DNA of 55,972 bases from the NCBI GenBank assembly GCA_046542255.1, contig JBKHBT010000012.1, positions 1-55,972 on the forward strand. The letters run 5' to 3'. Source of the DNA: Candidatus Zixiibacteriota bacterium (GTDB lineage: Bacteria > UBP14 > UBA6098 > JBKHBT01). Positions 8,438-26,174 of the stretch are shown piece after piece; positions within the stretch are counted from its first letter, which is position 1, and each line of letters opens with the position of its first letter. A model generated the notes under the pieces. The model was not told the DNA's origin. It did no database searches and was given only the letters and a program-made list of their open reading frames with translations. A program made the translations under genes and the position numbers.

Positions 8438-9352
8438 TTATTTGATATATGAAACGCGGTCTATGGCTCTTTCCTCGCCATTATCGGCTTCAATGATATA
8501 AACTCCCGAAGAAATGCCATTATCCGGCGTCCATATCCTTTCATACCTTAGGTTCTCGATGAGCTTGCCATCGATATCATAAATTTTGATCATAGCTGAT
8601 GCTGGTGCATCTATGGAAACAGCGCCATTGAAAGGATTGGGAGCTGATGTAATGGTCATATTATCTGGTATATCGATCGTGTTTTCTTTCAGGCCTTCTG
8701 TGCTAAATGATATTAGATAAGAAATATCTTCTGTACCACCACCGCTCATGAAATCGATATTGTATGCATATTCCTTGACAATGCCCACATCTTCGGCTAA
8801 CCAATGACGGAATGAAACATATGTCATCGAATCTTCGAACATCGTTGATGAAACCTCATAATAGGTAGTCATTTCCGTCTTGATGCACTCATATTCGCCT
8901 GCTGGAGCGTTTACTGTCTCAAAGCCTATTATCTCGCCATGAGTTATTATGTATGCATCGACCGGGAAGCCCATGATCTCCATGACTGTATCGACTTCAA
9001 AAACCAACCACTCGTCGCCGATAGAAAATGGATCCGGTAGAACTCTCATCGGAACCTCGAAATCCATGCCCATATCCCCCAGCAATTGCTCAAATAAATA
9101 GATTCCATCGGTTCTAAATTGCATTGTGATAGTATCTGTACTGGTCGTTGTTTCCTGTAAGATGTCAACAGCATCTGCGCCCATATCTGTGTACATATCT
9201 ATCACGGTTTCTGTGCTATTTGTGAAACCATCCGCAGTTGAATCCCGATAAACCCATTCATATCCAAGCCCTACTGGATAAAAATCTCGTGCATCTTCAG
9301 CACATAGGACTATGGCCATAATCACAGAAACCAAAATAATAATTCTTTTCAT
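8438..9352 (-). CDS. Secreted protein with a T9SS-type (Por secretion) C-terminal sorting domain
   Basis: N-terminal signal peptide. The C-terminal ~75 aa (APNPFNGAVSI...IKIYDIDGKLI...GVYIIEA) matches the T9SS CTD pattern. Confidence 0.6.
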   Translation of the reverse strand: MKRIIILVSVIMAIVLCAEDARDFYPVGLGYEWVYRDSTADGFTNSTETVIDMYTDMGADAVDILQETTTSTDTITMQFRTDGIYLFEQLLGDMGMDFEVPMRVLPDPFSIGDEWLVFEVDTVMEIMGFPVDAYIITHGEIIGFETVNAPAGEYECIKTEMTTYYEVSSTMFEDSMTYVSFRHWLAEDVGIVKEYAYNIDFMSGGGTEDISYLISFSTEGLKENTIDIPDNMTITSAPNPFNGAVSIDAPASAMIKIYDIDGKLIENLRYERIWTPDNGISSGVYIIEADNGEERAIDRVSYIK

Positions 9353-9493
9353 AATTCCTCCTTATTTTTCTTCATTTCTCTAAAAGATAAGTCCTATATC
9401 AAACATTGTCAATCAATTAAAGAATTCTGACAAATGCAAGAAAATATTTATTTTATCCTTTCCATATTTTTTTTGATGTTTAGATTATTGACT

Positions 9494-10483
9494 ATGAAAA
9501 TTGGTATAACAACAACAATACCAGTAGAAATAATCTATGCAGCCGGGCATGTCCCCATCGATTTGAATAATTCACTTGTCAGCTCGCAGATTCGAGATAA
9601 ACTGATTTCCAGTGCAGAATACTCGGGATATCCCAGAAATATCTGTGGCTGGATAAAGGGAATCTATGGTTCTGTTATTCGAATGCTCGAAAAGGAAAAT
9701 CTATCTACTATAATTGCTGTAACACAGGGCGACTGTTCTAATACTCATGCCCTAATGGAAACACTGGAGCTTGCCGGTGTCCGCACGATACCATTTGCAT
9801 TTCCATATGATCGTTCCAGAAGGATACTAAAAGAGCAAATCGATGAGCTTGCAGATAAACTTGGCGCCGATTGGCCCAAAATCCGAAAATGGAAAAAACG
9901 TTTGGATGATATAAGGCATCTGGCACATCAAATCGATTTCATGACCTATGACAGCCTGAGATTTACAGGCCAGGAGAATAGCCTCGCACTCATAAATTGC
10001 TCCGATTTCAAATCTTCTCCGGATATTTTCGAAAAGGAACTTAAGGAAATGCTCGAAAAAAGGAAAACACAAAAGCGAGATGATAGTTTGCCCAGAATTG
10101 GTATGATTGGAGTTCCACCGATAATGCTCGATTTCCATGATACCATAGAAAATTATGGCTCACATATTGTTTTCAATGAGGTGCAAAGGCAATTTGCGAT
10201 GCCATTTGATACCGATGATATTTTGGAGCAATACCTTAAATATACTTATCCTTATTCTGTATTTCAAAGGCTGGATGATATCGATGAGCAAATCAAAAAT
10301 CGAAGAATCGATGGGCTTGTTCATTATGTGCAATCTTTCTGTTTTCGACAAATCGAGGATATGATATTCAGAAAGAAGCTCGATATCCCCATTCTCACAA
10401 TCGAAGGCGGCGACAACTTCGAAACAGATGAAAGACAAAAAATGAGAATACAAGCTTTCGTAGAAATGCTGGCTCGAAAATGA
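9494..10483 (+). CDS. 2-hydroxyacyl-CoA dehydratase family protein (HgdB/BcrC/BadD-like component)
   Basis: Start MKIGITTTIPVEIIYAAGHVPIDL resembles HgdB/D-component-family proteins, and it has conserved Cys residues. It overlaps by 4 nt (ATGA) the downstream activase gene. An alternative upstream start is at 9434. Confidence 0.5.
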   Translation: MKIGITTTIPVEIIYAAGHVPIDLNNSLVSSQIRDKLISSAEYSGYPRNICGWIKGIYGSVIRMLEKENLSTIIAVTQGDCSNTHALMETLELAGVRTIPFAFPYDRSRRILKEQIDELADKLGADWPKIRKWKKRLDDIRHLAHQIDFMTYDSLRFTGQENSLALINCSDFKSSPDIFEKELKEMLEKRKTQKRDDSLPRIGMIGVPPIMLDFHDTIENYGSHIVFNEVQRQFAMPFDTDDILEQYLKYTYPYSVFQRLDDIDEQIKNRRIDGLVHYVQSFCFRQIEDMIFRKKLDIPILTIEGGDNFETDERQKMRIQAFVEMLARK

Positions 10484-11253
10484 AAACCTATGGTATAGAT
10501 CTCGGTACAAGGAATATCAAAATTGCAGAATTTTCGAATAATGAGTTCCAATTTCGAATATTTGATACAGTGGATTTTTATAAGAATTATATCATCTCCA
10601 AAGAGGGCAGCTTCGAAATCGATCTCCAAAAATTACATATAAATGGCCAGATATGTGCGACAGGCTATGGACGTGAAATGGCAAATCTCACTGGCATTAG
10701 AAAGATATCAGAAATAATGGCTCATACAAAAGGCACAATATGGCAAACTGGGCTTTCTGATTTCATCCTCATCGACCTGGGTGGCCAGGATTCCAAAATA
10801 ATAGACATCGAAAACTACAATGTGCAGGATTTCAGGACAAATGACCGCTGTGCAGCATCGACAGGCCGATATCTTGAAAATATGGCGAATATTCTGGGAA
10901 TGAGTATCGATGAAATATCCAAATATCATCGAAATCCGGAGAAATTATCCAGCATTTGTGCTGTTTTTGGCGAGTCGGAACTTCTTTCGAAAATCGCTAT
11001 GGGTAGCTCGATTGAAAGTCTCGCATCGGGTGTGAACCATGCTCTTGTAAACAGGCTAAAGCCCTTTATTGCATCATTTATGTCCAAAACGATCGTCCTT
11101 ACCGGTGGTGTATCTAAAAGTGAAGCTATCCAAAAAATAATAGAAGAAAACTTCCAAACCGACCTTATAATCCCCCAATTTCCGCAGTTTAATGGAGCAA
11201 TCGGAGCGATAGCGGATATTATAGATATTGACATCACAAAGAGTATAATATAG
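10480..11253 (+). CDS. CoA-substrate-specific enzyme activase (BadF/BadG/BcrA/BcrD/HgdC ATPase family)
   Basis: N-terminal GIDLGTRNIK (ASKHA ATPase phosphate-1 motif) and DRCAASTGRYLE, matching the CAAGTGRFLE cluster-helix motif of HgdC-type activators. Confidence 0.7.
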   Translation: MKTYGIDLGTRNIKIAEFSNNEFQFRIFDTVDFYKNYIISKEGSFEIDLQKLHINGQICATGYGREMANLTGIRKISEIMAHTKGTIWQTGLSDFILIDLGGQDSKIIDIENYNVQDFRTNDRCAASTGRYLENMANILGMSIDEISKYHRNPEKLSSICAVFGESELLSKIAMGSSIESLASGVNHALVNRLKPFIASFMSKTIVLTGGVSKSEAIQKIIEENFQTDLIIPQFPQFNGAIGAIADIIDIDITKSII

Positions 11254-11415
11254 TCTTATATCCTTTATTTACAATAAATTACAATATTCATCTAAACAAA
11301 TATGCAAATAAAACAACTCTTTTAGCTAATTTTATGGAGCTTACGCATTTTTTACTTGACAAATGTTTTCTTATCGCTAAATATTATTAAAGGAATTTGA
11401 TGCACTGGAGATACT

Positions 11416-12420
11416 ATGCTGGGTGAGTTTTATAGTTTTGAAAAAAAAGATTTTGCAAAATTTATCTATAAATTAACAGAATATGGCAAAATCGCCAATT
11501 TTTTACCCCTTAAAGGCAAAAATCCTGCCCTTTCATTCATAAGTGAAAAAAATCATATCCAATTAGAAGATTTCGATTTCGATAGGCAATTGTCTATGGA
11601 CTCTCCGAGATTGCTTCTGCAGAAGCCATATGAGCAAATTGGTAAATTTGTCAACCCTACTGAAAAAGTCGTTTTCTTTGGTTTAAAAAACTGTGATATA
11701 TACTCTATCCTTATTCACGACAAAGTCTTTTTGTATAAAGAGCCTATCGATGAGAATTACAAAGAAATCCGAAATAATTCTATTATTGTTTCTTTCGATT
11801 GCCGAATTATTTGCGAGAATTGTTTTGCATCTTCTTTTCTTGACAATCCCTATCCAAGCGGCAATTTTGATTTGAATATTTCTATTGTCGATGATAGATT
11901 CCTGGTTCAAACCGGTTCCCAAAAGGGTGTTGAGATTATCGGCCAGCTCGAAAAAAAGAAAGCTAGCAATTCTGAAAAGCAACAGCTTTTCGATAAGCGC
12001 GAGATGCTAAAAACAGAATTTCAGAAGAGAAAAATCGACCTGGAAAATTTCTATCAGATAGAGAAATTAGAGTTTATAAATGAAGGCCTCGATGCTATTA
12101 CAGAACCCGATAAATGCCTTAATTGCGGCGCTTGCGATTATATTTGCCCCGCTTCTAATCAATTCAAGATACAATCGGGGTCCGAATATATTCATTCTAA
12201 ATGGTCAACGTTTTTTCAAAATTCAAACTTAGCTAGTTACAAATTCAAAGAGAGATTTATCTATAAATTTCTATATTTCAGGTATTTGTATAATTGCATC
12301 GCCTGTAGCGGATGCGGAAGATGTACAAATATCTGTCCGGGGGGGATCGATATAGCAGATATCCATAGAAAGCTAAATGCTTTCTTAGAAAGGCGTATAA
12401 ATGAAAACATCTCTATATGA
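11416..12420 (+). CDS. Fe-S oxidoreductase subunit, AsrA/HydB-like (C-terminal 2x[4Fe-4S] ferredoxin motifs)
   Basis: CLNCGACDYICPA and CIACSGCGRCTNICPGG motifs near the C-terminus. 334 aa. Translationally coupled (overlaps) with the next gene. Confidence 0.5.
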   Translation: MLGEFYSFEKKDFAKFIYKLTEYGKIANFLPLKGKNPALSFISEKNHIQLEDFDFDRQLSMDSPRLLLQKPYEQIGKFVNPTEKVVFFGLKNCDIYSILIHDKVFLYKEPIDENYKEIRNNSIIVSFDCRIICENCFASSFLDNPYPSGNFDLNISIVDDRFLVQTGSQKGVEIIGQLEKKKASNSEKQQLFDKREMLKTEFQKRKIDLENFYQIEKLEFINEGLDAITEPDKCLNCGACDYICPASNQFKIQSGSEYIHSKWSTFFQNSNLASYKFKERFIYKFLYFRYLYNCIACSGCGRCTNICPGGIDIADIHRKLNAFLERRINENISI

Positions 12421-13252
12421 TTTTGTCCCTGCTCAAATAATATCTATTCGTCAGGAGTCGAAAAAAACAAATACCTATTCTTTAAGGGTCGAAGAGCCTA
12501 TCGATTTTGCAATCGGGCAATTTATCATTGTGAATATGCCTTCGATTGGACAGTTTCCAGTTATGGGACATCCGATTTCAAAAAGCGGAGATATTTTAGA
12601 AATCACACTTTCCAAGGATAATGAACTTGAGAAAATATTTTGCATACAAAAGCACATCTCGGATACGATTATGATACGAGGCGGCTATGGCAATGCCTTA
12701 GATATATCATCTATGAAGGATAAAAATCTCCTTTTTATCGCATCCAATAGCGGCATAATCAATATAAAGCCAATATTTTACGGACTGCTGCAAGATAGAG
12801 ACAATTATCAAAAGATTGATATCAATTATAGTTCATGCAATTACGATGAATTGATTTACAAAGAAGAACACTCCCACTGGCAAGCTATCGATGATACACA
12901 ACTTACGATTTCACTCGAAAAGCCGAAAAAGGACTGGTCGGGTTATAAAGGAAACATATTAGACCTTTTATTAAAAAACCAGTTAAAATTAAAGAATACC
13001 ATAGCCTTTATTTCAGTAGAATCAAGATTATCAAGTTCAATAATGGAATATTTGCTTGCTCAGAATTTTGATAAGAAAAACATTTTCATAGTCTTATTAG
13101 AGGATATCAATTGCGGAGTTGGCAAATGCAGCAAATGCAATATCGGCCCCTATCTTAAATGCAAAGATGGGCCTATAATGAATTATTCTGATATTGAAAG
13201 ATTTCTTCTCAGCCACAAAAAAATGAAGAATATAGAAAGTGCATATGTCTGA
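12401..13252 (+). CDS. FAD/NAD(P)-binding oxidoreductase subunit, PyrK/HydG/AsrB-like with a C-terminal [2Fe-2S] motif
   Basis: TYSLRV (an RxYS-like FAD motif), GGYGNAL (NAD-binding) and C-terminal CGVGKCSKC...C. Confidence 0.6.
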   Translation: MKTSLYDFVPAQIISIRQESKKTNTYSLRVEEPIDFAIGQFIIVNMPSIGQFPVMGHPISKSGDILEITLSKDNELEKIFCIQKHISDTIMIRGGYGNALDISSMKDKNLLFIASNSGIINIKPIFYGLLQDRDNYQKIDINYSSCNYDELIYKEEHSHWQAIDDTQLTISLEKPKKDWSGYKGNILDLLLKNQLKLKNTIAFISVESRLSSSIMEYLLAQNFDKKNIFIVLLEDINCGVGKCSKCNIGPYLKCKDGPIMNYSDIERFLLSHKKMKNIESAYV

Positions 13253-14765
13253 TAAAAAATTAAAATGCCAATTCTGTAGCCTACAGGATGATATTTATAT
13301 TAACGAGTTATCATCCAATGATAAAAAAGATGCATTTTGTATCGACTATGATTCAACAAAGTCTGGAGTTTGCGCAAGAGGCCATTTGATGGCTAAATTA
13401 TATTCACATCCAAATAGAATAAAGGAGCCGCTTCTTTCTAATGAGAGAGCTTCATATGGCCTTGCCATCGAATCCCTCAGTCGGATGCTGGATAAAAATA
13501 CAGCATTTCTTCTCGGCCCAAGTTTGACTCTTGAGGATGCCTTATCAGCTATTAAGTTCTCTAAAGAATTGGGAAGTGACTTTGTATCTCTTGCTATTCC
13601 TGAAGATGAGACTGTTTCATTTCTCATGAATAGATTTTCTTTTGAGAGTTTCAATGACTCTAATCTAGTGATTATTGTAGGTGATGTATTAAGTACCCAT
13701 CCTACCATTTCTCGTTATTTCCTTTCTTTTTTCAAAAATGAAAATAAATCTTTGGTAGTAATCGATAATCACGAAACCGTTACATCTGGTTCGGCAGATT
13801 TGTTTTTACAGATATTACCCGGACAGGTTGGCGCATTCATTAAAGAGCTTGTCCGATATAATAATGAAGAATGGTCGAACCTGGATAAATATCGAATCGA
13901 TAAAAGCGAAATCGAGAGTTTTACCGATTTGATGAATGATGCTAAAAACCCGATAATTCTCTTTTCTAATAATTTTGGCCATTTCTATCAGCCAGAAAGA
14001 ATTGGCTATCAAGCGCAGAAACTGGCTCAATCCCTCGGTGATTCACATAATTTTGCATACCTCCCTATTGGTTCGAATAGTAGAGGCATATACAGGCTTC
14101 TTCGCCAGAACGATATGAAAAAGCTGCCTGAAACATTAAAAGCAATAGAATCCGGCAAGGTTAGCAAAATTGTTATGCTTCAAACAGACATCACTGAAGC
14201 AGTCCCAGCAATCGATCTTTTTAATATTGAAAGTATTATCCAGAGCACTTTATTGCCAACAGCTATTACGCCTTACTGTCATATAGTACTGCCAGGATTG
14301 CTTCTCGGTGAAAAAAAGGGCACATTATTGACTCTTGAAGAAAAACTCGAGAGACTAAATCCTATCAAGAATAAATACAACATCCTTCAAGAAAATCGCA
14401 TATTTTCTGGAATGGCGGGAATCTTAAATGGCATTACTCAAAAAGAAATAGCAGAAATTTTGAAAAGTTACCGGCAACCACCTAAAAAATCTGGCACTTT
14501 TTTTGCTATAAACAAACCTGTTTATATCGGCTTTTCTGAACCATTTCATCATTCAGATGGCTCTTTAACACGCTCCCTTTTACAAAATGATACCGATAAA
14601 TTCAAAGAAAAACTTTCTTTGAAGAAGGCAATGGATAATCCTGTCATAACTGATTTTGACCAAAATGATGAAAAATCGATTATAATGACACCGGTACATA
14701 TTCCAGAATTTAGAAGGCTTTTTACTCGTAAATTTGAACCCGGTATAATGCAGATGAAAGGCTAA
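13239..14765 (+). CDS. Truncated MopB-family (molybdopterin oxidoreductase/formate-dehydrogenase-like) protein. It has the N-terminal Fe-S domain but no apparent catalytic Cys/Sec and no C-terminal molybdopterin-dinucleotide-binding domain.
   Basis: N-terminal C-x2-C-x(n)-C...CARG. Motifs IIVGDVLSTHPT (the G.N...THP block), VVIDNHETVTSGSADLFLQILPGQ (the vvDPR.T.TA..AD.hL.irPGTD block) and HIVLPGLLLGEKKGT. Only 508 aa. Confidence 0.55.
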   Translation: MHMSDKKLKCQFCSLQDDIYINELSSNDKKDAFCIDYDSTKSGVCARGHLMAKLYSHPNRIKEPLLSNERASYGLAIESLSRMLDKNTAFLLGPSLTLEDALSAIKFSKELGSDFVSLAIPEDETVSFLMNRFSFESFNDSNLVIIVGDVLSTHPTISRYFLSFFKNENKSLVVIDNHETVTSGSADLFLQILPGQVGAFIKELVRYNNEEWSNLDKYRIDKSEIESFTDLMNDAKNPIILFSNNFGHFYQPERIGYQAQKLAQSLGDSHNFAYLPIGSNSRGIYRLLRQNDMKKLPETLKAIESGKVSKIVMLQTDITEAVPAIDLFNIESIIQSTLLPTAITPYCHIVLPGLLLGEKKGTLLTLEEKLERLNPIKNKYNILQENRIFSGMAGILNGITQKEIAEILKSYRQPPKKSGTFFAINKPVYIGFSEPFHHSDGSLTRSLLQNDTDKFKEKLSLKKAMDNPVITDFDQNDEKSIIMTPVHIPEFRRLFTRKFEPGIMQMKG

Positions 14766-14767
14766 AA

Positions 14768-15208
14768 TTGAATGCTAAGCTCTCAAAAAGGCTTTATCTA
14801 GAAAAAGATCTTTGCATAGGCTGTATGGCATGTGTGTTTGCGTGTAAATCAGCTCATGATGGAATAAACCATATGCAATATTGCAATTTTGAATCCAATT
14901 TCTATCTTCCCAATCCTTGCCGAAATTGTAATATCCCAATATGCAAGGATGTTTGCCCGGTAGATGCAATCGAGAAAACCGGAAATGGAACAATCAAATT
15001 AAACAAGTCAAAATGCATCGCATGTGGCTCCTGTCATATTGCCTGCCCATTTGGTTCGGTCGTAGAAAATGATAAATTAGTTTATTCAATATGCGATCTT
15101 TGTTATGATACTATATACCAGAACAATCCAGCGTGCATTGCAACATGTCCAACAAATGCTTTGAAAACAAAAAGACTTAAAATTAAAGAATCAGAGAAAA
15201 AATTATAG
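14768..15208 (+). CDS. 4x[4Fe-4S] ferredoxin-type subunit (HycB/FdhB-like)
   Basis: Four Cys clusters of the CxxCxxCxxxC(P) type in 146 aa. Confidence 0.7.
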   Translation: MNAKLSKRLYLEKDLCIGCMACVFACKSAHDGINHMQYCNFESNFYLPNPCRNCNIPICKDVCPVDAIEKTGNGTIKLNKSKCIACGSCHIACPFGSVVENDKLVYSICDLCYDTIYQNNPACIATCPTNALKTKRLKIKESEKKL

Positions 15209-15655
15209 ATGAAAACAATAGCTGAAAAAATCACTAAATTTCTTGGCGAAAAAATCGATATCCATATCGAAACAATGGGCAATCGAATCTATATATCGGT
15301 CGCTATTGATGATCTTATTGAATTGATGAGTCTGGTGAAAAATGAACTTAATTGCGAATTTTCCGCTGCTTCTGGTTTTGCAGAAAGTGACGGTTTTGTT
15401 CTTGTGTATATGCTTTTTAATAATGAAAAAAGTTATATGGCCAATATTAGAACAACATTAAAAGATGGAAAAGCAATCTTTCCATCTATCAAAGAAATCT
15501 ATCCCGAAGCAAATTGGGCTGAGAAAGAGCTTGCAAATAGATATAATATCGAGTTCAAAGATAGTCAAAACAAAACTTCCGAGAAAAATGAAAACGATGG
15601 CATCATCGATGTATATGCATCTGTGTTAGACCTTGATGTCGAAAGTATTATTTGA
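15209..15655 (+). CDS. NuoC/EchD-like 30-kDa-subunit-family protein (complex I/group 4 hydrogenase accessory subunit homologue)
   Basis: The C-terminal WAEKELANRYNIEF matches the WHEREVYDMFGIVF block of NuoC/HycE-N. 148 aa. Confidence 0.5.
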   Translation: MKTIAEKITKFLGEKIDIHIETMGNRIYISVAIDDLIELMSLVKNELNCEFSAASGFAESDGFVLVYMLFNNEKSYMANIRTTLKDGKAIFPSIKEIYPEANWAEKELANRYNIEFKDSQNKTSEKNENDGIIDVYASVLDLDVESII

Positions 15656-16217
15656 TATGGCTAATGGTATCATAAATAAGATTAGTACTGGATTACGAAA
15701 TATTATATCATCTGAAGAGCAGTCAAAAGAAGAGAATAGAATTAATGATGAGATAATCCTTTTCGATCCAGACAATTGCATTTTATGCGGCCTTTGTGCC
15801 AAGCATTGCCCAATAGACTCCATTCAAATACACGACATAAATGAAATACGTACAATAATTAGAGATCATTCAAAATGCTTGAAGTGCAATAACTGTATCG
15901 ATATCTGCCTAATTGGAGATGGTTCAATACAACAAGAACTAAACTGCATAGAGTCTGAAGAAATCGATAGTATTAGCAAAGAGCTAATCAGATGCGAGAA
16001 ATGTAGAAAACCAATCGGATCAAAATCATATCTTGAACATGTCGGAAATAAAATGTCCGATAAGATCTATTCCAATAAAACCCTACTCTACTTAAAATTT
16101 AAAAAATTAGGCATCATGGGCGAGAAAGAAAAATATCAAACGCGTCATTCTATCAATAATGATATTGAAATAATCTGTCCCAAATGCCGTATCAAACTTG
16201 AGATAGAGCAAAAATAA
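15633..16217 (+). CDS. 2x[4Fe-4S] ferredoxin (NuoI/EchF-like) with a C-terminal CxxC...CxxC zinc-ribbon
   Basis: CILCGLCAKHCP and CLKCNNCIDIC motifs, plus CEKCRKP...CPKCR at the C-terminus. Confidence 0.6.
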   Translation: MMSKVLFDMANGIINKISTGLRNIISSEEQSKEENRINDEIILFDPDNCILCGLCAKHCPIDSIQIHDINEIRTIIRDHSKCLKCNNCIDICLIGDGSIQQELNCIESEEIDSISKELIRCEKCRKPIGSKSYLEHVGNKMSDKIYSNKTLLYLKFKKLGIMGEKEKYQTRHSINNDIEIICPKCRIKLEIEQK

Positions 16218-16300: not shown

Positions 16301-17692
16301 ATGGAACTCAAGAGATTACTGGTTTTATTTTCTATCATTGCCATCCTCTTATTTGCTTTCGGTTGCCCGGATGATGATGATGATGATGACAATAATAGCA
16401 ATGATGATGACTCAGCCATGTACGAAGCATCTGGCGCAGTCGATTCTAATGGAGAATTATTGCTTGAAACAGAAAGTGGCGCAAAGCTTGCAATTCCTAG
16501 ATATGCTGTACCATTGACTATCGAAGAAGAAACAGGCACAATGGTCTTTTCTATAGAAAGAGATTTGTCTATAAGCCCTGTTTTGGATGAAGGGGCATCG
16601 AGTGCTTCTGATGTCTATCGCTTTGGGCCTGATGGTTTCGTTTTTGCTTCACCAGTTAGAGTAACAATACCTATCGATAATTTCGATGAGTCCAAGGAAT
16701 ATGAGATTTATCGTATTAATCAGACAACAGGTGAAGCCGAAGTATATTCATCATTTATCGATGAAGAAAATGCCACGATTTCAGCATATACATATCATCT
16801 TTCACCCTGGGCAATCTCAGAAAGAGAATACCGGGAACGCTCTGGTGGGGCCGTTCGCATTTCAAATACGAGTTCGACACATGCACTTCATGTCAGCGTA
16901 GCGGATTTCGTACCGGCCTATCCCATGGCAGATACAGTTACCTGTTCGCTCTATGATGCATATTTTCCGGCATTAGGCTCCGGTTCTTTTGTGGCCAGTA
17001 GCGGACTTTGGCATCTTCCACAGGGCACATATACCCTATGTTTCCGCATGTCGGAACAGGGCACTTTCATGAATCCACCAGGCGATCCTGTTCGCTGGTA
17101 TGAGCATGATGTTATAATTGATCAGCCCTGGTCAAGAACCAGTCCAAATATTTCGGATGAGTTCTCATATGGCCGTCCATCCGATGATGCTGTCGATGGC
17201 TTTTGTGATTGCCGTCCAGAACCGACTCCTTCAGCTGGAACCGGCGATGTTCAGGTAACATTGACATGGCATAATTCTGATCCGATAGACCTCGACCTCT
17301 GGATAATTGAACCAGATAGTACAGTATGTAATTATGCTACAACCCCAACTGCAAGCGGTGGCACTTTAGATAGAGACAATCTCTGTGGATCAACCTATAT
17401 CAATGGAAGGCCCGAGAATATCTTCTGGAGCTCCGCACCTGAAGGTACATATCGCGTTCAAGTTGACTGGTTTAGCGATTGTGGCAATGGCATGAGTTCA
17501 CAGGGCTATGATGTCAGAATTGTAAATGGTTCAGATGTCAGGACATTCTCAGGAACAATCCAGGCAGAAGAGACAATCGATATTGCAACATTTACCGTAT
17601 CAAGGCCTTCATTAGCAAAATCTTCGGGTAATTCGATATTCTATATCGGCCAGAAGACAGAAAGAATTGCCGAAAGGCCACCGAAATATTAA
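16301..17692 (+). CDS. Secreted or lipoprotein with a poly-Asp linker and a C-terminal proprotein-convertase P-domain-like beta-sandwich
   Basis: Signal peptide ending in FGC, followed by a D7NNSND3 tract. The C-terminus DLDLWIIEPDSTVC...GTYRVQVDW fits the P-domain/PPC pattern. Confidence 0.5.
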   Translation: MELKRLLVLFSIIAILLFAFGCPDDDDDDDNNSNDDDSAMYEASGAVDSNGELLLETESGAKLAIPRYAVPLTIEEETGTMVFSIERDLSISPVLDEGASSASDVYRFGPDGFVFASPVRVTIPIDNFDESKEYEIYRINQTTGEAEVYSSFIDEENATISAYTYHLSPWAISEREYRERSGGAVRISNTSSTHALHVSVADFVPAYPMADTVTCSLYDAYFPALGSGSFVASSGLWHLPQGTYTLCFRMSEQGTFMNPPGDPVRWYEHDVIIDQPWSRTSPNISDEFSYGRPSDDAVDGFCDCRPEPTPSAGTGDVQVTLTWHNSDPIDLDLWIIEPDSTVCNYATTPTASGGTLDRDNLCGSTYINGRPENIFWSSAPEGTYRVQVDWFSDCGNGMSSQGYDVRIVNGSDVRTFSGTIQAEETIDIATFTVSRPSLAKSSGNSIFYIGQKTERIAERPPKY

Positions 17693-17842
17693 GTGTTTAG
17701 CTAGATTTCATTTTTTTCTGAAAAAAAAAAGAAAAAAGCTTGCATAATAAATTATACGCCCTATATTAATAATGATAAGTTCTTATTAATGTAGTTTTGT
17801 TTCGGGGTTAGGGCACTGATACTAAATTTTTTAAGAACTTAG

Positions 17843-17872
17843 GGCGGCTTTTATAAAGCCGCCTTTTTTATT
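17843..17872 (+). terminator. Rho-independent terminator
   Basis: Stem GGCGGCTTT/AAAGCCGCC followed by TTTTTTATT. Confidence 0.65.
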
Positions 17873-18770: not shown

Positions 18771-21700
18771 CTATTTTTGCAAAACTTTCTCCACTACCTC
18801 ACGAAGACATTCCTTAGTATAAGGCTTTACAACTACTTCCTTGAATCCATAATCCGAATAATTTACCAAAACCTCGTCCTCAGCATATCCGCTGGAAACA
18901 ATAACATTTGCATTTTTATCGATTTTTAGTATTTCAGTTATTGTCTCTATTCCGCCTTTTCCACCTGGAATTGTAAGATCCATTATGATAATATCAAAAC
19001 CCTGGCCTTGTTGGTATGCCTTTTGAAAAATCTCGATAGCCTCTTCTCCTGATGCTGCAGTAGCAGTCTCGAAGCCCATGCTGACAAGACGATATTTGGT
19101 AACGCGTCGGACAATTTCTTTATCGTCCATTATCAATGCCCTTTTGCCTTCGAATTTTTTGTGGGGTTTTGGAGTTACTTTGGAATTCTTCTTCTTTTGT
19201 TCTTTTTCTATGGCAGGAATAAGCAGTTCGAAAATCGTACCTTTTCTCGCCGAAGACTTTACCTCGATATAACCCCCATGCTTTTTGATTATGGAATAAA
19301 CCGTTGTCAAGCCAAGCCCGCCTTCAGAATCTTTTGTGCTAAAATAAGGATCGAATATCTTATCGATATGGTTTTCGGAAATACCATGTCCCTCATCTGC
19401 AAATGTTATCTTGATATACTTCCCTGATTGAAATTGGGAGAAATTTTGAACATCGAGTTCAATATTTTCTAAATCTATGTATAAATTACCGCCATCTGGC
19501 ATGGCCTCTTTGGCATTTAATGTTAGATTAGAAAATACCTGCTGAATCTGGCCCTTATCGACATTCGCAATCCAAAGACCATCGGGACAATTATAAACAG
19601 GTTTCACATTGCTACCCGAAAGGTCAAATTGGACGATATCCTTCAGCACCTCGATCAAACGAATATCCTGTTTTACTGGAGCCCCCCCTTTCGAAAATGT
19701 TAGGAGTTGTTTGCTCAGACGCTTTGCCATATCCAATGATGCTTCTGAATCCTGAAGGAATTTCCATGCTGGATGCGATGGCTCGAGATTGTCTTTTACA
19801 ATCGAAAGATTACCAAAAAGGCCCATAAGAATATTATTAAAATCATGAGCGATACCACCTGCCAGAGTTCCGAGACTTTCTAATTTCTGAGTACGAATCC
19901 TTTGATCTTCGAGATTCTTTCTTTCGGTTATATCGCGAACCGTTGCCAATACTTTATCATCCTCGAAAGGAACCATTTGGGCATTGTAAATTTTTTCTTC
20001 TGAACCTTTTAAGAATTTATAGTCGAAAACCCTTTTGTTTTTAGTCTCGATAGTTTTTGCGATGTTTTCTAATATAATTTTCTGCTGTTCTTCTGAAAAA
20101 CCAGCATCCTTGATATTCTTGCCGATTATTTCTTCGGAAGATATAAGCAACTCTTCATCTATCTCGGCTTTGAAATCGATATATGTCCCATAGCTATCGA
20201 GAATAAACATCATCTCTGGCATCGCATCAAGAAGTGCTTGATTTCTATTGTAGGTGATTTCTAATTGCTTCTCCTGTTCCTTTTTTTCGGTAATGTCCCT
20301 AACCATTGAAAGCACCTGCCCTTCGCCACAAGGAACCATTCTTACTTCAAAGAAATGCTGCTTTTCATCTAATATCAGAGAATATTCATAATTTTGATTT
20401 TCCTTGGACTCCAGAGTTTTTATCACTTTCTTTTTGGTTAATTCAGATAGCTTTTTGGGCAAAACCTCATCAATTTTCTTACCAATGAACTCCTTCTCCG
20501 GAACAAGCAGCTTTTCGCTTTGCGGTGCGTGATTATCAATAAATCTGAATTGGTCATCTATTCTAAATAATAAATCGGGAATAGCGGCTAAAGTTGCACT
20601 ATATCTCTTTTCATTTTCACGGATCGCTTCTCGCATCTTGTATTCTTTTGTTACATCTCTAAAAACGAGTACGGTGCCTAAGATATTGCTATTTTTATCT
20701 TTTATGGGAGCTGCTGAATCTGCGATTTGATATTTCTTGCCACTTTTGGAAATAAGGGCAGTATGATTGGCAAGCCCAATAATTTTACCTGTTTGTAATA
20801 CTTTGCCTACCGGATTATCGACTTTTTTCAACGTATTGGAATCTACAATATTAAATACTTCTGTTAATCCTCTTCCAATTGCATCTTCAATCTTCCATTC
20901 AGTTAATTTTTGGGCGATAGGATTCATAGATTCAATATTACCCTTGGTGTCGGTAGTTATAACTGCATCGCCAATAGAATTGAGTGTCGTCTCCAATCGG
21001 TCTCGGCTTTCACTTAGCTGTAATTCGGTTTTTTTACGTTCGGTAATATCATCTATGATAGACAAAATCCTATTATGGCCATCCATCTTCAAGATTTCAG
21101 CAAAGAAAAGTCCGATTAAAATTCCACCGCTTTTCTTTTGTAATTCAACCTCGATACCATCTACTCTGCCCTTTTCTGCTAATTCATTTTTTATTTTTGT
21201 TCTGTTTTCTTGAGAAAGAATCTTCAAGTCAATGGATGTTTTGCCAATTATTTCGGCTCTTTTATAGCCAGTGGTTTTAATAAAATTACTATTAATTTCA
21301 ATATATCTATCTGTATCGATATCCTCGATACACATAAGTAACGGTCCATTATGAAACGCCCTGGAAAACAATTCTTCAGACCTTCTAAGCTCCTTTTCCA
21401 TTTCCTTTCTTTTGCTAATATCTTCAAAAACAGTAACGAAATGCGAGCTATCAGTTGAGAATGCAGAAATGGAAAAATATTTATTAAAAGGTTTGAAATA
21501 GACTTCAAATCGGTAAGGTAGTCCTGTTCGGGCAACTTTAGTGAAGATTTCAAGATAAGGCGGCCTGTCTGTTCCATAGACTTCGGTTGAAAATTTACCA
21601 ACTATATCTTCGGTTCTAAGCTCCAGAATATTTTCATACGCAAGGTTTACATCAGTGATACGATAATCCACTGGATTGCCAAGTTTATCATGGACAATCT

Positions 21701-22226
21701 CGTGGATTGCAACTCCTTCGTTCATATTTTCGTATAGTTTGCGATATTGCTTTTCGCTTTTTTTTATCTTTTCCCGCAAAAGGAAACTATTTGTGCTATC
21801 TCGAAAGACAATCACAACTCCTTTTATTTTTCCAAAACTATCGAATATCGGCGCGCCAGAATCTGAAATATGGTATTTATCACCATTTTTAGAAATTAAA
21901 ATGGCATGATTGGCCATATCGACTACAATACCTTTTTTTAATACTTTTTTTGCAGGAGAATCTATTCGTATGCCGTTTTTAGAATCCACAAGATGCAAAA
22001 TCTTGGATATTTTATGGCCAATAGCATCATCAGCATTCCACCCGGTGAGTCTTTCTGCTTCAGGATTGAGGCCGGTAATAATTTCTTTCGCATCACAAGA
22101 AATGACAGCATCACCCATGGAATTGAGAATCATTCGTAGATTATCGATCTTACTAGATAATGCTTTTATCTTCTCTTTGGCCTGTTGTAAATCGCTAATA
22201 TTCGAATCAATATGACCACTGTCCAT
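18771..22226 (-). CDS. Multi-PAS hybrid sensor histidine kinase with a C-terminal receiver domain
   Basis: Several PAS repeats, HisKA (LAGGIAHDFNNIL), HATPase (GxGLGL) and a receiver domain (RALIMDD...IIMDLTIPG). Confidence 0.85.
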   Translation of the reverse strand: MDSGHIDSNISDLQQAKEKIKALSSKIDNLRMILNSMGDAVISCDAKEIITGLNPEAERLTGWNADDAIGHKISKILHLVDSKNGIRIDSPAKKVLKKGIVVDMANHAILISKNGDKYHISDSGAPIFDSFGKIKGVVIVFRDSTNSFLLREKIKKSEKQYRKLYENMNEGVAIHEIVHDKLGNPVDYRITDVNLAYENILELRTEDIVGKFSTEVYGTDRPPYLEIFTKVARTGLPYRFEVYFKPFNKYFSISAFSTDSSHFVTVFEDISKRKEMEKELRRSEELFSRAFHNGPLLMCIEDIDTDRYIEINSNFIKTTGYKRAEIIGKTSIDLKILSQENRTKIKNELAEKGRVDGIEVELQKKSGGILIGLFFAEILKMDGHNRILSIIDDITERKKTELQLSESRDRLETTLNSIGDAVITTDTKGNIESMNPIAQKLTEWKIEDAIGRGLTEVFNIVDSNTLKKVDNPVGKVLQTGKIIGLANHTALISKSGKKYQIADSAAPIKDKNSNILGTVLVFRDVTKEYKMREAIRENEKRYSATLAAIPDLLFRIDDQFRFIDNHAPQSEKLLVPEKEFIGKKIDEVLPKKLSELTKKKVIKTLESKENQNYEYSLILDEKQHFFEVRMVPCGEGQVLSMVRDITEKKEQEKQLEITYNRNQALLDAMPEMMFILDSYGTYIDFKAEIDEELLISSEEIIGKNIKDAGFSEEQQKIILENIAKTIETKNKRVFDYKFLKGSEEKIYNAQMVPFEDDKVLATVRDITERKNLEDQRIRTQKLESLGTLAGGIAHDFNNILMGLFGNLSIVKDNLEPSHPAWKFLQDSEASLDMAKRLSKQLLTFSKGGAPVKQDIRLIEVLKDIVQFDLSGSNVKPVYNCPDGLWIANVDKGQIQQVFSNLTLNAKEAMPDGGNLYIDLENIELDVQNFSQFQSGKYIKITFADEGHGISENHIDKIFDPYFSTKDSEGGLGLTTVYSIIKKHGGYIEVKSSARKGTIFELLIPAIEKEQKKKNSKVTPKPHKKFEGKRALIMDDKEIVRRVTKYRLVSMGFETATAASGEEAIEIFQKAYQQGQGFDIIIMDLTIPGGKGGIETITEILKIDKNANVIVSSGYAEDEVLVNYSDYGFKEVVVKPYTKECLREVVEKVLQK

Positions 22227-22481
22227 GATTGTCCTAACTTAAGTCTAATTATAAGTTATAGGCTATACCATTTTTTCTTGACACTATTAAAACAATTTTT
22301 TGCTCTTCCTCATTTTAATTATACACAAATTTCCTAAAATGTCAATTTTTTTTACAAATTAATTCATGATAACAAAAATTTTAGAAGGTCTTTGGATACA
22401 ATTGCTCCATCAAAATTTTTCTTTCAATTTAATTCAGATTTTGTATTTTCTATAAAGGTATTTAATATTGAGGATAATTTA

Positions 22482-25309: not shown

Positions 25310-25398
25310 CATATATATAATACTTAATATATTTAGCAAAAGGATTTACTGATGTTTTAGCCTGAAAAGTATGACAATGCGGAGCAGCGCATTGTCTG
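25282..25398 (+). repeat. Copy B of the ~115-bp repeat family, inserted between the two halves of a T9SS cargo gene
   Basis: Best-conserved copy, with a perfect 9-bp hairpin GACAATGCG-GAGCAG-CGCATTGTC. Confidence 0.7.
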
Positions 25399-26174
25399 AT
25401 ACTTCTGAAATCGAAGGATATGGATATATGCATCAAAACTCTTCCCGAGTTATTGGACTCGGGCTTTGGGGAGAAATGACTGACGATGGTTCGACATATT
25501 CACTAACAGCCTTTAATGAAGACTACAGCCCTTCGAATACATTCCCGATGAATTATGGAGACAGCTGGATCGAAACTTCTTATGGAACAGGCGAAATAAA
25601 TTATATCGTTACCATGGACTATGAATACTGGGACACAAGCTATTACGAAATCGATGCATGGGGACAGATTATTTTACCGATAGGCACTTTCGATGCATTA
25701 CGAGTAAAAAAGCGTCATCATAGGCATCAGGTTTCTGACCATTTTCTTTTTGGATTCGATAAATTCGAAAGAGAATTTGGTTGGCAATGGTACTGCTATG
25801 AAGTCGGCTTTGCTGGTTCATGGATGGGCCCAAAAGACACCCTGGATAATCTACCCGATTCGACATTTACGATAGGCAAGCTTAGCTATCAGATTGCAAA
25901 TTCAATGCTCTCCATTTCTGAAAAAGAAGCAAAGCCGGCGAAAGTTGAGATTTTAACATATCCTAATCCATTTAATTCATCGATTTCGATCCTTACGGAT
26001 GATAATGCAGATATATCGATTTTCGATTTGAATGGCAAGTGTATATTGCGAAATAGCTTGCCTTCAGGGGTTTTTAGATGGCAACCAAAAGGCGATTTAA
26101 CTTCCGGGATTTATATTATCGAGATAGAATCCCATAATGGCCGTATCCAAAAGCAAGTATTCTATATCGGATAG
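25371..26174 (+). CDS. C-terminal fragment of a secreted protein with a T9SS C-terminal sorting domain. It has no signal peptide of its own.
   Basis: C-terminus LTYPNPFNSSISI...DISIFDLNGKCI...GIYIIEIE. The annotated ATG (ATGACAATG) lies inside the repeat core. Confidence 0.5.
   Translation: MTMRSSALSDTSEIEGYGYMHQNSSRVIGLGLWGEMTDDGSTYSLTAFNEDYSPSNTFPMNYGDSWIETSYGTGEINYIVTMDYEYWDTSYYEIDAWGQIILPIGTFDALRVKKRHHRHQVSDHFLFGFDKFEREFGWQWYCYEVGFAGSWMGPKDTLDNLPDSTFTIGKLSYQIANSMLSISEKEAKPAKVEILTYPNPFNSSISILTDDNADISIFDLNGKCILRNSLPSGVFRWQPKGDLTSGIYIIEIESHNGRIQKQVFYIG

What the first reader, a model, noticed from the sequence alone, without database searches (positions are those of the whole stretch)
11416..16217. 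Tightly coupled six-gene redox module with Fdh-like, hydrogenase-like and complex-I-like parts but no recognisable catalytic subunit
The genes overlap or abut (overlaps of 20, 14 and 23 nt; gaps of 2 and 0 nt), implying one operon. In order they are an AsrA/HydB-like Fe-S protein, a PyrK/HydG/AsrB-like FAD/NAD(P) flavoprotein with [2Fe-2S], a MopB-family protein, a 4x[4Fe-4S] HycB/FdhB-like ferredoxin, a NuoC/EchD-like protein and a NuoI/EchF-like 2x[4Fe-4S] protein. The combination resembles a soluble NAD(P)H-linked formate dehydrogenase or formate-hydrogenlyase-like complex. The expected [NiFe] large and small subunits (NuoD/NuoB-like), the membrane subunits, and a catalytically competent Mo/W subunit are all missing. 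This may be a new electron-transfer or electron-bifurcating assembly, or a degenerate remnant.
Basis: partly seen in the sequence, partly recalled or inferred. Interest (0 to 1): 0.65.

Follow-up and report, generated by a model that had tools for sequence, protein, structure and literature searches.

The report
Hydrogenase arm that lost its hydrogenase
These six genes are the leftover soluble iron-sulfur arm of a poorly understood membrane-bound hydrogen-producing enzyme; the hydrogenase, the membrane pump and apparently the NAD(P)H site have all been lost, yet two distant uncultured bacteria still keep the arm intact.

Summary
Six overlapping or abutting genes at 11416-16217 encode a HydB/AsrA-like Fe-S protein, a HydG/AsrB-like protein, an Fdh-like MopB protein, a four-cluster ferredoxin, a NuoC-like protein and a NuoI/HycF-like protein. 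The contig is from a Zixibacteria MAG.

Comparative genomics shows where the module came from. Every other context recovered for this MopB family (at least 16 loci) is a roughly 16-gene operon with the order AsrA-AsrB-MopB-CooF-NuoH-NuoB-NuoC-NuoD([NiFe])-NuoL-Mrp...-NuoI-HycI. A 2019 paper called this operon an 'enigmatic' group 4 hydrogenase.

The window keeps exactly the non-membrane, non-NiFe subunits, in the same order. A second lineage (NPID01002219.1) has the same reduced set. The two form a clade (100/100 bootstrap) nested among full operons (98/100), so the module arose by loss.

It is not decaying. 86% of aligned cysteines are conserved against 31% of other residues. However, the flavoprotein has lost all four FAD/NAD(P) motifs, NuoC has lost its conserved C-terminal block, and the MopB protein lacks the Fdh Sec/Cys-His-Arg residues.

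The most likely function is a soluble Fe-S electron-transfer complex (about 11 clusters) with unknown partners. This is a new variant of a known but uncharacterised kind. Interest is moderate.

The parts
11416..12420 (+). Gene 1. A HydB/ShyB/AsrA-like Fe-S subunit (334 aa). Cys patterns for three [4Fe-4S] sites are retained. The CxC...C trio found in full-operon orthologues is lost.
   Evidence: NCBIfam sulfhyd_ShyB 1.4e-25 and HydB 2.2e-21. PDB 9nez_B 4.7e-18. Alignment A4. Fer4_22 scores 35.5 bits here against 88.8 bits in the full-operon orthologue.
12401..13252 (+). Gene 2. A HydG/ShyC/AsrB-like subunit (283 aa). The [2Fe-2S] motif C-x4-C-x2-C-x7-C is retained. The FAD and NAD(P) motifs are degenerate: PxS/T becomes PVM, GRVT becomes DNEL, GGGVGLAP becomes ASNSGIIN, and CGP becomes VES.
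   Evidence: PDB 9nez_C 3.2e-27, with the alignment. Alignment A3. Pfam NAD_binding_1 scores 20 bits (below the cut-off) and there is no FAD_binding_6 hit, against 54 and 27.7 bits in L010.
13239..14765 (+). Gene 3. An Fdh-derived MopB-like subunit (508 aa; 506 aa from the ATG at 13245). The N-terminal cluster motif is C10-x2-C13-x3-D17...C45. E122-D123 stand where Fdh has Sec/Cys-His, and a hydrophobic residue stands at the Fdh catalytic Arg. Domain IV is shortened.
   Evidence: PF00384 5e-8. The family profile matches FdhA 9t1s_L at 3.2e-85, with residue-level alignments. Alignment A1. AF2 model pLDDT 84.9, with residues 454-478 below 50. Foldseek hits NuoG, NfnABC and Fdh at similar scores.
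14768..15208 (+). Gene 4. A CooF/HycB-type ferredoxin (146 aa) with four complete [4Fe-4S] motifs.
   Evidence: PF13247 2e-13. NCBIfam hits to DmsB, HydN and FDH beta. 16 of 17 Cys are conserved with L003. Orthologues sit directly after the MopB gene in all full operons.
15209..15655 (+). Gene 5. A NuoC-like subunit (148 aa). It lacks the conserved C-terminal block HPDPR..LL..D..PEG.YP.R.DYP. It carries a new acidic tail, IDVYASVLDLDVE, that is shared with L003.
   Evidence: PF00329 6.5e-11, covering profile positions 2-100 of 124. Alignment A6. PDB NuoC hits.
15633..16217 (+). Gene 6. A NuoI/HycF-like 2x[4Fe-4S] subunit (194 aa) with a C-terminal CxxC...CPKCR site. Its N-terminal segment differs from the 'KGPYT.KYP' segment of full-operon orthologues.
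   Evidence: NCBIfam hits to HyfH, HycF and NuoI that cover most of the length. 25% identity over 161 aa to the operon-end Fe-S protein of L024, including all Cys motifs. Alignment A5.
11356..11385 (+). A promoter-like site (TTGACA-18-AATATT) in the 162-nt gap upstream of gene 1. It may be the module's own promoter.
   Evidence: Consensus scan and the sequence. This is a consensus match only.
9434..11253 (+). Neighbouring pair, membership uncertain. It encodes a single-subunit HGD-D/double-cubane-like protein and a BcrAD/BadFG-type ATP-dependent activase.
   Evidence: PF06050 2.2e-40, PF01869 1.5e-29 and TIGR00241 1.8e-52. The same pair lies 7 kb from the reduced module in L003. The family is very widespread without the module.

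Best explanation
The six genes encode a soluble multi-Fe-S electron-transfer complex. It is a hydrogenase-less derivative of the cytoplasmic arm of the 'AsrA/AsrB-MopB-CooF-Mbh-Mrp' group 4 [NiFe]-hydrogenase.

Two internal deletions happened in a common ancestor of this Zixibacteria lineage and of the NPID01002219.1 lineage. One removed NuoH-NuoB. The other removed NuoD-NuoL-Mrp (and HycI).

What remains is a chain of about 11 Fe-S clusters:
- gene 1: 3 x [4Fe-4S]
- gene 2: [2Fe-2S]
- gene 3: one [4Fe-4S] with an Asp ligand
- gene 4: 4 x [4Fe-4S]
- gene 6: 2 x [4Fe-4S] plus a Cys4 site

The chain is held on a NuoG-like MopB scaffold together with a remodelled NuoC.

Shown: the homology, the gene order, the derivation by loss, the selection on Cys ligands, the loss of the FAD/NAD(P) motifs, and the loss of the segments that are conserved in full-operon NuoC and NuoI orthologues.

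Inferred: the six proteins still assemble, and they pass electrons between external partners that are not yet identified. Candidates are a ferredoxin-type carrier or the adjacent ATP-dependent HGD-D/activase system. The complex would do this rather than carry out NAD(P)H, formate or H2 chemistry itself.
For: 1. Same subunits, same order. The gene 1-6 orthologues flank NuoH/NuoB and NuoD...Mrp in L010, L016-18, L020, L022 and L024. Versions without genes 1 and 2 are in L006-8 and L013-15. The NuoD proteins there carry both NiFe motifs. The NuoI-like gene sits at the end of the operon.
2. Derived by loss. The reduced pair is monophyletic in 100/100 bootstraps and nested within full-operon lineages in 98/100.
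3. Maintained by selection. All six ORFs are intact and tightly packed in both lineages (overlapping or abutting in the window; up to 64 nt apart in L003) despite only 24-36% identity. 44 of 51 aligned Cys are conserved, against 31% of other residues (Fisher p = 1.5e-15). The NuoC copies share a derived tail.
4. Constraint was relaxed specifically where function was lost. Identity to outgroup orthologues is 24-28% for HydG-like (48-68% among full operons) and about 25% for NuoC (34-51%). For MopB it is unchanged at 21-26% (21-29%).
5. The FNR motifs are lost in gene 2, and the FAD barrel is deleted in L003.
6. No hydrogenase or membrane subunits occur in the 56 kb.
Against: - Only two lineages carry the reduced set, and both are uncultured.
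- There are no expression, protein or cofactor data.
- NuoC and NuoI homologues have no known role apart from NuoD, NuoB and NuoH.
- The rest of the genome could not be searched, so partners encoded elsewhere are not excluded.
- A complex with no catalytic site needs partners, and none is identified.
- Assembly of the six proteins is inferred only from homology to FHL, Mbh and complex I.
Confidence: 0.5

Rival explanations
1. MopB-centred enzyme. Gene 3 still binds Mo/W-bis-PGD, perhaps with the invariant Asp123 as ligand, and oxidises or reduces an unknown substrate that is not formate. The Fe-S chain carries the electrons to or from a ferredoxin-type partner, or to the adjacent ATP-dependent HGD-D/activase system.
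For: - The family keeps Fdh-like motifs (GD..HP, VID...T, EK.GT, H..DGS.T) and an invariant Asp next to the Sec/Cys position.
- Molydop_binding is detected in some members.
- MopB-CooF alone heads operons that lack AsrAB, where it is the only candidate input enzyme.
- MopB is the only subunit whose evolutionary rate did not rise after the reduction.
- The HGD-D/activase pair lies within 8 kb of both reduced modules.
Against: - The Sec/Cys, His and Arg of Fdh are all absent.
- MopB is the least conserved subunit even among full operons (21-29%). That is typical of a scaffold such as the C-terminal domain of NuoG.
- Domain IV is shortened and modelled with low confidence in the window protein.
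- Fold hits to cofactor-less NuoG and NfnABC domains are as good as hits to Fdhs.
- No Moco genes are nearby.
- HGD-D homologues are very widespread without the module.
Confidence: 0.2
2. Split operon. The six proteins still dock onto NuoB/NuoD/NuoH-type hydrogenase or Nuo/Mbx-like subunits that are encoded elsewhere in the genome. They would then form a complete membrane complex.
For: - NuoC and NuoI homologues are otherwise known only as parts of such complexes (established knowledge of complex I, FHL and Mbh; PDB hits).
- Only 56 kb of the genome could be inspected.
- Zixibacteria are reported to carry the related full hydrogenase (PMC6349859).
Against: - Both reduced NuoC copies have lost the C-terminal block that is conserved in all full-operon orthologues. 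The NuoI-like N-terminal 'KGPYT.KYP' segment is replaced in the window and deleted in L003. These are the parts expected to contact NuoD and NuoH. That they are contact sites is an inference from complex I and FHL structures.
- No such genes lie within 10 kb of the L003 module.
- The full operon found in the same deposited assembly as L003 (L017) has a different GC content and tetranucleotide signature.
Confidence: 0.2
3. Non-functional relic. After the deletions the operon is simply decaying.
For: - Nucleotide-binding motifs are lost.
- Domains are truncated differently in the two lineages: genes 1, 2, 4 and 6 are 334, 283, 146 and 194 aa in the window, against 200, 226, 117 and 123 aa in L003.
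- Divergence of HydG-, NuoC- and Fd-like subunits is accelerated.
Against: - There are six intact, tightly packed ORFs in each of two lineages that share only 24-36% identity.
- 86% of aligned Cys are conserved, against 31% of other residues.
- All family-invariant MopB residues are kept.
- The NuoC copies share a derived tail motif.
Confidence: 0.1

Closest known systems
The 'enigmatic' group 4 [NiFe]-hydrogenase cluster with asrA-like, asrB-like, fdhH-like and cooF-like genes plus Mrp subunits. It was described in Saganbacteria RX5A, with relatives in Zixibacteria and Omnitrophica (Matheus Carnevali et al. 2019, PMC6349859, main text and Supplementary Note 5).
   Same: All six window genes have orthologues in this operon type, in the same relative order. 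The MopB subunit likewise cannot be classified as a formate dehydrogenase.
   Different: The window lacks NuoH, NuoB, the [NiFe] large subunit, NuoL, all Mrp-like subunits and HycI. Its AsrB-like subunit has lost the FAD/NAD(P) motifs. Its NuoC and NuoI-like subunits lack segments that are conserved in the full operons.
Soluble arm of E. coli formate hydrogenlyase: FdhF-HycB-HycE(N-terminal NuoC part)-HycF (PDB 7z0t/7z0s). Also the Thermococcus Fdh-Mfh-Mnh (group 4b) clusters.
   Same: The same architecture: a MopB protein, a four-cluster ferredoxin, a NuoC module and a NuoI-like ferredoxin.
   Different: There is no HycE NuoD part, no HycG and no HycC/D. The MopB protein lacks Sec/Cys140, His141 and Arg333. 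Extra sulfhydrogenase beta/gamma-like subunits are present.
Pyrococcus furiosus sulfhydrogenase I beta and gamma subunits (PDB 9nez B and C), and the AsrA/AsrB anaerobic sulfite reductase electron-input pair.
   Same: Genes 1 and 2 are full-length homologues (4.7e-18 and 3.2e-27). They keep the ferredoxin motifs and the [2Fe-2S] motif.
   Different: There is no alpha/delta hydrogenase or AsrC partner. The four FNR-type flavin and pyridine-nucleotide motifs are lost in gene 2.
Cofactor-less MopB domains: the C-terminal domain of NuoG/Nqo3/75-kDa of complex I, and the NfnABC/StnABC large subunit (PDB 9bov_A, 8oh5_C).
   Same: They are the top structural matches of the gene 3 model. They also share loss of the catalytic residues, and low sequence conservation consistent with a scaffold or electron-transfer role.
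   Different: By sequence, gene 3 is much closer to true Fdhs (family profile 3e-85) than to NuoG (about 1e-32). It also lacks the N-terminal 2Fe-2S/4Fe-4S domains of NuoG.

Membership tests
Formate dehydrogenase (FdhF/FdhA-type MopB) | Sec or Cys ligand to Mo/W, followed by the catalytic His (FdhF U140-H141) | tested here: not met
   Profile-to-PDB alignments place E122-D123 of the window protein (family consensus x-D) opposite the X/C-H of 9t1s_L, 7qv7_S and 7bkb_D (A1).
Formate dehydrogenase (FdhF/FdhA-type MopB) | Catalytic Arg (FdhF R333) in the 'PLRGQNNVQG' motif | tested here: not met
   The family has a hydrophobic residue at this position ('plltggNslG'). The window sequence is LPIGSNSRG.
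Formate dehydrogenase (FdhF/FdhA-type MopB) | N-terminal CxxCxxxC...C [4Fe-4S] motif and the overall four-domain MopB fold | tested here: inconclusive
   C10, C13 and C45 are present, but the third Cys is Asp17, as in its whole subfamily. The fold is MopB (pTM 0.89), but domain IV is shortened and has low confidence.
Formate dehydrogenase (FdhF/FdhA-type MopB) | Bound Mo/W-bis-PGD cofactor | not testable with these tools
   This needs metal and pterin analysis, or an experimental structure.
Group 4 membrane-bound [NiFe]-hydrogenase (Mbh/FHL/Ech type) | Large subunit with the L1 (RxCGxCxxxH) and L2 (DPCxxCxxR) NiFe motifs | tested here: not met
   The window has no NuoD-like ORF. The related full operons have it, with both motifs.
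Group 4 membrane-bound [NiFe]-hydrogenase (Mbh/FHL/Ech type) | NuoB-like small subunit, and NuoH/NuoL/Mrp-like membrane subunits | tested here: not met
   A phmmer search with the L010 subunits against all window ORFs of 40 aa or more gave no hit.
Sulfhydrogenase gamma / AsrB / PyrK-type FNR-like flavoprotein | FAD motifs (PxS/T and GRVT) and NAD(P) motifs (GGxGxxP and CGP) | tested here: not met
   All four are replaced in gene 2 (PVM, DNEL, ASNSGIIN, VES). They are intact in L009, L010, L016, L017 and 9nez_C. Pfam NAD_binding_1 is below its cut-off and FAD_binding_6 is absent (compared).
Sulfhydrogenase gamma / AsrB / PyrK-type FNR-like flavoprotein | C-terminal [2Fe-2S] motif C-x4-C-x2-C-xn-C | tested here: met
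   C238, C243, C246 and C254 are invariant in A3. PF10418 matches residues 236-265.
Sulfhydrogenase beta / AsrA | Full-length homology, with two ferredoxin-type CxxCxxCxxxCP motifs and an N-terminal Cys cluster | tested here: met
   9nez_B aligns over residues 8-322. The motifs are present in A4. A CxC...C trio that is conserved in full-operon orthologues is missing.
NuoC / complex I 30-kDa family (PF00329) | Pfam domain above the gathering score, over its full length | tested here: inconclusive
   The score is 43.3 bits against a cut-off of 22.5, but only profile positions 2-100 of 124 are matched. The conserved C-terminal block is absent.
NuoI / HycF / MbhN family | Two CxxCxxCxxxC motifs, plus the family's N-terminal segment next to the membrane subunit | tested here: inconclusive
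   Both motifs and the C-terminal CxxC...CxxC pair are shared with the operon-end orthologue. The N-terminal 'KGPYT.KYP' segment is not conserved. All NCBIfam scores are far below their cut-offs.
AsrAB-MopB-CooF-Mbh-Mrp 'enigmatic group 4 hydrogenase' operon (PMC6349859) | The complete gene set, including the hydrogenase and Mrp modules | tested here: not met
   Only the six soluble non-NiFe subunits are present. The module descends from this operon type but is not a member of it.

The most novel reading that the evidence does not exclude
The reduced module is a free-standing redox enzyme of a new type. In this reading the Fdh-derived MopB subunit, with an Asp-coordinated Mo/W centre or another repurposed site, acts on an unknown substrate. 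An 11-cluster Fe-S wire built from former hydrogenase and complex-I parts, including orphan NuoC and NuoI subunits, delivers the low-potential electrons to the neighbouring ATP-dependent HGD-D/double-cubane-type reductase system.
Probability: 0.1. Interest if true: 0.8.

Novelty: new variant of a known kind. Interest (0 to 1): 0.5.

Why it matters
Complex I and the group 4 hydrogenases are thought to have been built from modules. This is a natural case of the reverse process. The electron-input arm survives under selection after the catalytic [NiFe] module, the ion-pumping membrane module and apparently the pyridine-nucleotide site were all removed.

If the complex is functional, two things follow. 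First, NuoC- and NuoI-type subunits and a NuoG-like MopB scaffold can have a life outside membrane complexes. Second, the parent enzyme, which is itself uncharacterised and widespread in candidate phyla, becomes easier to study. Its soluble arm exists here as a compact six-gene unit that could be expressed to find out what the unclassifiable MopB subunit binds and does.

There is also a practical lesson. Annotating such clusters as 'formate dehydrogenase' or 'NAD(P)H oxidoreductase' in MAG-based metabolic reconstructions would be wrong.

Tried and rejected
- The word-index protein search with the MopB protein found only itself. The exhaustive HMMER search was needed to find relatives.
- The first search for related loci attempt, with the 26-sequence alignment, failed because no stretch was conserved enough. 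A 5-sequence alignment worked.
- A literature search for PDB 7Q5Y found nothing. PMC9324843 concerns other hydrogenases.
- dN/dS could not be computed. The only close relatives (L001, L002) differ from the window by 1-2 bases.
- I first used the 60%/50% identity of the neighbouring HGD-D/activase pair as a yardstick for 'fast evolution' of the module. I dropped this because that family is 52-56% identical even to Firmicutes. It was replaced with relative-rate comparisons against full-operon outgroups.
- I tested whether the reduced (L003) and full (L017) operons in the same deposited assembly come from one organism. GC is 45.5% against 53.6%, and the tetranucleotide correlation is r = 0.39, so probably not.
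- Rejected: an electron-bifurcating flavoenzyme (no flavin motifs), a formate dehydrogenase (catalytic residues absent), an assembly artefact (three assemblies agree), and horizontal-transfer or plasmid origin (the window carries ribosomal-protein and other housekeeping genes).
- The Foldseek search could not discriminate cofactor-bearing from cofactor-less MopB proteins.


Full report
**Observation**

The junctions are overlaps of 20, 14 and 23 nt and gaps of 2 and 0 nt.

Pfam, NCBIfam and PDB sequence searches confirm each label:
- Gene 1 is sulfhydrogenase-beta/AsrA-like (9nez_B, 4.7e-18).
- Gene 2 is sulfhydrogenase-gamma/AsrB-like (9nez_C, 3.2e-27).
- Gene 3 is a MopB protein (PF00384 only).
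- Gene 4 is a four-motif CooF/HycB-type ferredoxin.
- Gene 5 is NuoC-like (PF00329, 6.5e-11).
- Gene 6 is a 2x[4Fe-4S] protein whose best full-length matches are HyfH, HycF and NuoI.

The contig belongs to a Candidatus Zixiibacteriota MAG. Two further assemblies of the same strain carry the identical arrangement, with 1-2 mismatches. It is therefore not an assembly artefact.

A promoter-like TTGACA-18-AATATT lies 30 nt upstream of gene 1. There is no terminator-like site before the next gene, a lipoprotein with a ZU5 domain. The first strong one is at 17841-17865.

**Where the module comes from**

A word-index search with the MopB protein found only itself. An exhaustive HMMER search of 1.84 billion cluster representatives found 125 relatives. 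Only one was above 33% identity: P0002 at 36%.

I recovered genomic context for this family from GTDB genomes, JGI metagenomes and direct look-ups. I then mapped the six window proteins, plus hydrogenase and membrane subunits, onto those loci.

Every informative locus except one shows the same long operon. The order is (AsrA-like, AsrB-like)-MopB-CooF-like ferredoxin-NuoH-NuoB-NuoC-NuoD-NuoL-several Mrp-type subunits-NuoI/HycF-like ferredoxin-HycI. The loci are L010, L016-18, L020, L022 and L024, and, without the AsrAB pair, L006-8 and L013-15.

The NuoD proteins carry both [NiFe] motifs, RICGICSTSH and DPCYCCTER. The parent is therefore a genuine Mrp-linked group 4 hydrogenase.

This operon has been noticed before. 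Matheus Carnevali et al. (2019) described an 'enigmatic' group 4 hydrogenase in Saganbacteria, with relatives in Zixibacteria and Omnitrophica. They noted Mrp subunits, an unclassifiable molybdopterin oxidoreductase, and cooF-, asrA- and asrB-like genes (PMC6349859).

The window's six genes are precisely the soluble, non-NiFe subunits of that operon, in the same order. The two blocks NuoH-NuoB and NuoD...Mrp are missing. Gene 6 aligns over 161 residues with the operon-end Fe-S protein of L024, including both ferredoxin motifs and the CxxC...CPKCR pair.

**A second, independent copy of the reduced set**

The exception is P0002's locus (L003 = L012, NPID01002219.1). It has the same six genes in the same order and no hydrogenase or membrane genes within 10 kb.

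In a neighbour-joining tree of the MopB family, the two reduced copies pair in 100/100 bootstraps. They sit inside a clade of full-operon members in 98/100, with further full-operon members (P0005, P0007, P0013) outside it. The parsimonious reading is a single loss event in a common ancestor.

The two NuoC-like proteins share a derived feature. Both lack the C-terminal block HPDPR..LL..D..PEG.YP.R.DYP that all full-operon orthologues have. In its place both carry a similar acidic tail, IDVYASVLDLDVE and LDIYESVYDLDAE.

**Functional or decaying?**

The two reduced modules share only 24-36% identity per protein. Even so, all twelve ORFs are intact and tightly packed: overlapping or abutting in the window, with gaps of up to 64 nt in L003.

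Of 51 window cysteines that align to a residue in L003, 44 are conserved (86%). For other residues the figure is 31% (Fisher p = 1.5e-15). That includes 16 of 17 Cys in the four-cluster ferredoxin and 12 of 13 in gene 6. Both MopB proteins keep every family-invariant residue. This is not neutral decay.

Constraint has nevertheless been relaxed in a selective way. Identity to the outgroup full-operon orthologues L022 and L024 is as follows:

| Subunit | Reduced copies | Full-operon copies |
|---|---|---|
| AsrB/HydG-like | 23-28% | 48-68% |
| NuoC-like | about 25-28% | 34-51% |
| Four-cluster ferredoxin | 28-39% | 46-54% |
| MopB | 21-26% | 21-29% |

**The flavoprotein has probably lost its cofactors**

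In gene 2 all four FNR-superfamily signature motifs are replaced:

| Motif | Full-operon orthologues / P. furiosus HydG | Window gene 2 |
|---|---|---|
| FAD | PFT / PIS | PVM |
| FAD | GRVT | DNEL |
| NAD(P) | GGGVGLAP / AAGLGTAP | ASNSGIIN |
| NAD(P) | CGP | VES |

The [2Fe-2S] cysteines are invariant. Pfam finds NAD_binding_1 at 54 bits and FAD_binding_6 at 27.7 bits in L010. In the window protein it finds only a sub-threshold 20 bits and nothing, respectively. In L003 it finds neither, and most of the FAD barrel is deleted there.

The assignment of these motifs to flavin and pyridine-nucleotide binding rests on established knowledge of the FNR/PyrK superfamily. The conclusion that binding is lost is an inference.

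**The MopB subunit**

A profile of the family matches true formate dehydrogenases far better (9t1s_L 3.2e-85, HDCR FdhF 5e-71) than NuoG (about 1e-32). Even so, the residue-level alignments show the following:
- A variable residue and an invariant Asp (E122-D123 in the window) stand opposite the Sec/Cys-His pair.
- A hydrophobic residue stands opposite the catalytic Arg.
- The third Cys of the N-terminal cluster motif is Asp in this subfamily.

The AF2 model is confident (pLDDT 84.9, pTM 0.89), except for a shortened domain IV. Its best structural matches are cofactor-less MopB domains (NfnABC 9bov_A, NuoG) and real Fdhs, with near-equal scores.

MopB is also the least conserved subunit, even among full operons. 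That is what one expects of a NuoG-like scaffold. On the other hand, several facts leave a catalytic role open: the invariant Asp, the retained Fdh-like motifs, the existence of MopB-CooF-Mbh operons without AsrAB, and the unchanged evolutionary rate after the reduction. I put scaffold against catalytic at roughly 55:45.

**Is the missing part elsewhere?**

No NuoB, NuoD, NuoH, NuoL or Mrp homologue occurs in the 56-kb window. The 20 other large ORFs of the window that were scanned against Pfam include sensor kinases, T9SS cargo, ribosomal proteins, PdxA and FtsX, with two giving no Pfam family. The rest of the genome could not be searched.

The loss of the NuoC C-terminal block in both lineages argues against docking to a separately encoded hydrogenase. 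So does the fate of the NuoI-like N-terminal 'KGPYT.KYP' segment, which is replaced in the window and deleted in L003. This does not exclude docking.

The full operon present in the same deposited assembly as L003 comes from a compositionally different organism.

**Most likely mechanism**

The six proteins form a soluble complex in which about 11 Fe-S clusters make an electron wire. The clusters are distributed 3 + 1 + 1 + 4 + 2 across genes 1, 2, 3, 4 and 6, and there is also a Cys4 site. The wire would follow the FHL and complex I peripheral-arm pattern, with MopB and NuoC as scaffolds.

The complex would shuttle electrons between external partners, with no NAD(P)H, formate or H2 chemistry of its own (confidence about 0.5).

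The rivals are:
- a MopB-centred enzyme acting on an unknown substrate (0.2);
- a split operon that still docks to hydrogenase or membrane subunits encoded elsewhere (0.2);
- a decaying relic (0.1).

One lead on partners is a single-subunit HGD-D/double-cubane-like protein with its ATP-dependent activase. The pair lies directly upstream at 9434-11253 and is also within 8 kb of the L003 module. However, this family is very widespread without the module, so the link is weak.

**Verdict**

The module is best described as a hydrogenase-less, probably flavin-less derivative of the soluble arm of a previously noted but uncharacterised group 4 hydrogenase. It has been maintained by selection in two uncultured lineages. 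It is a new variant of a known kind. Interest is moderate: orphan NuoC and NuoI subunits and a natural 'arm-only' complex are unusual, but the function remains inferred.

Noticed in passing
window 9434-11253 (+); L003 19373-21147 (-): A single-subunit HGD-D/double-cubane-like protein and a BcrAD/BadFG-type activase lie 162 nt upstream of the module. The same pair (60% and 50% identity) lies 7 kb from the reduced module in L003. The family is highly conserved across phyla (52-56% identity to Firmicutes) and mostly occurs without the module.
   Followed up: partly
window 16301-17692 (+): The gene directly downstream has no terminator in between. It encodes a probable lipoprotein (the signal peptide ends in FGC) with a poly-Asp linker and a ZU5 domain (PF00791, 7.9e-8). 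ZU5 is best known from eukaryotic ankyrin/UNC5 proteins.
   Followed up: no
MopB family alignment A1 (window protein residue 17): In one subfamily, which includes the window protein, its partner L003 (P0002) and the full-operon members closest to it, the N-terminal [4Fe-4S] motif reads CxxCxxxD instead of CxxCxxxC. This implies an Asp-ligated or otherwise unusual cluster.
   Followed up: partly
L006-8, L013-15 compared with L010, L016-18, L020, L022, L024: The parent operon exists in two forms, with and without the AsrA/AsrB-like pair. Across full operons the MopB subunit is much less conserved (21-29%) than AsrB-like (48-68%), CooF-like (46-54%) or NuoC (34-51%).
   Followed up: partly
window 18771-22226 (-) and 22392-24905 (+): Two divergently oriented, very large hybrid sensor kinases (1151 and 837 aa) carry multiple PAS domains, HATPase and receiver domains. 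They lie just downstream of the module region.
   Followed up: no
window 41141-44050 (+): A 969-aa ORF has no Pfam family at E <= 1e-5. It lies immediately upstream of the ribosomal-protein cluster.
   Followed up: no
window 8438-9352 (-), 25371-26174 (+), 35029-36585 (+): Several proteins carry T9SS C-terminal sorting domains (Por_Secre_tail). This is consistent with an FCB-superphylum (Zixibacteria) origin.
   Followed up: no
window 1956-4943 (+): A 995-aa protein for which the precomputed table lists PPDK_N (pyruvate phosphate dikinase N-terminal, PEP/pyruvate-binding) and, only as a faint hit, a response-regulator receiver. Seen only in that table for L001.
   Followed up: no
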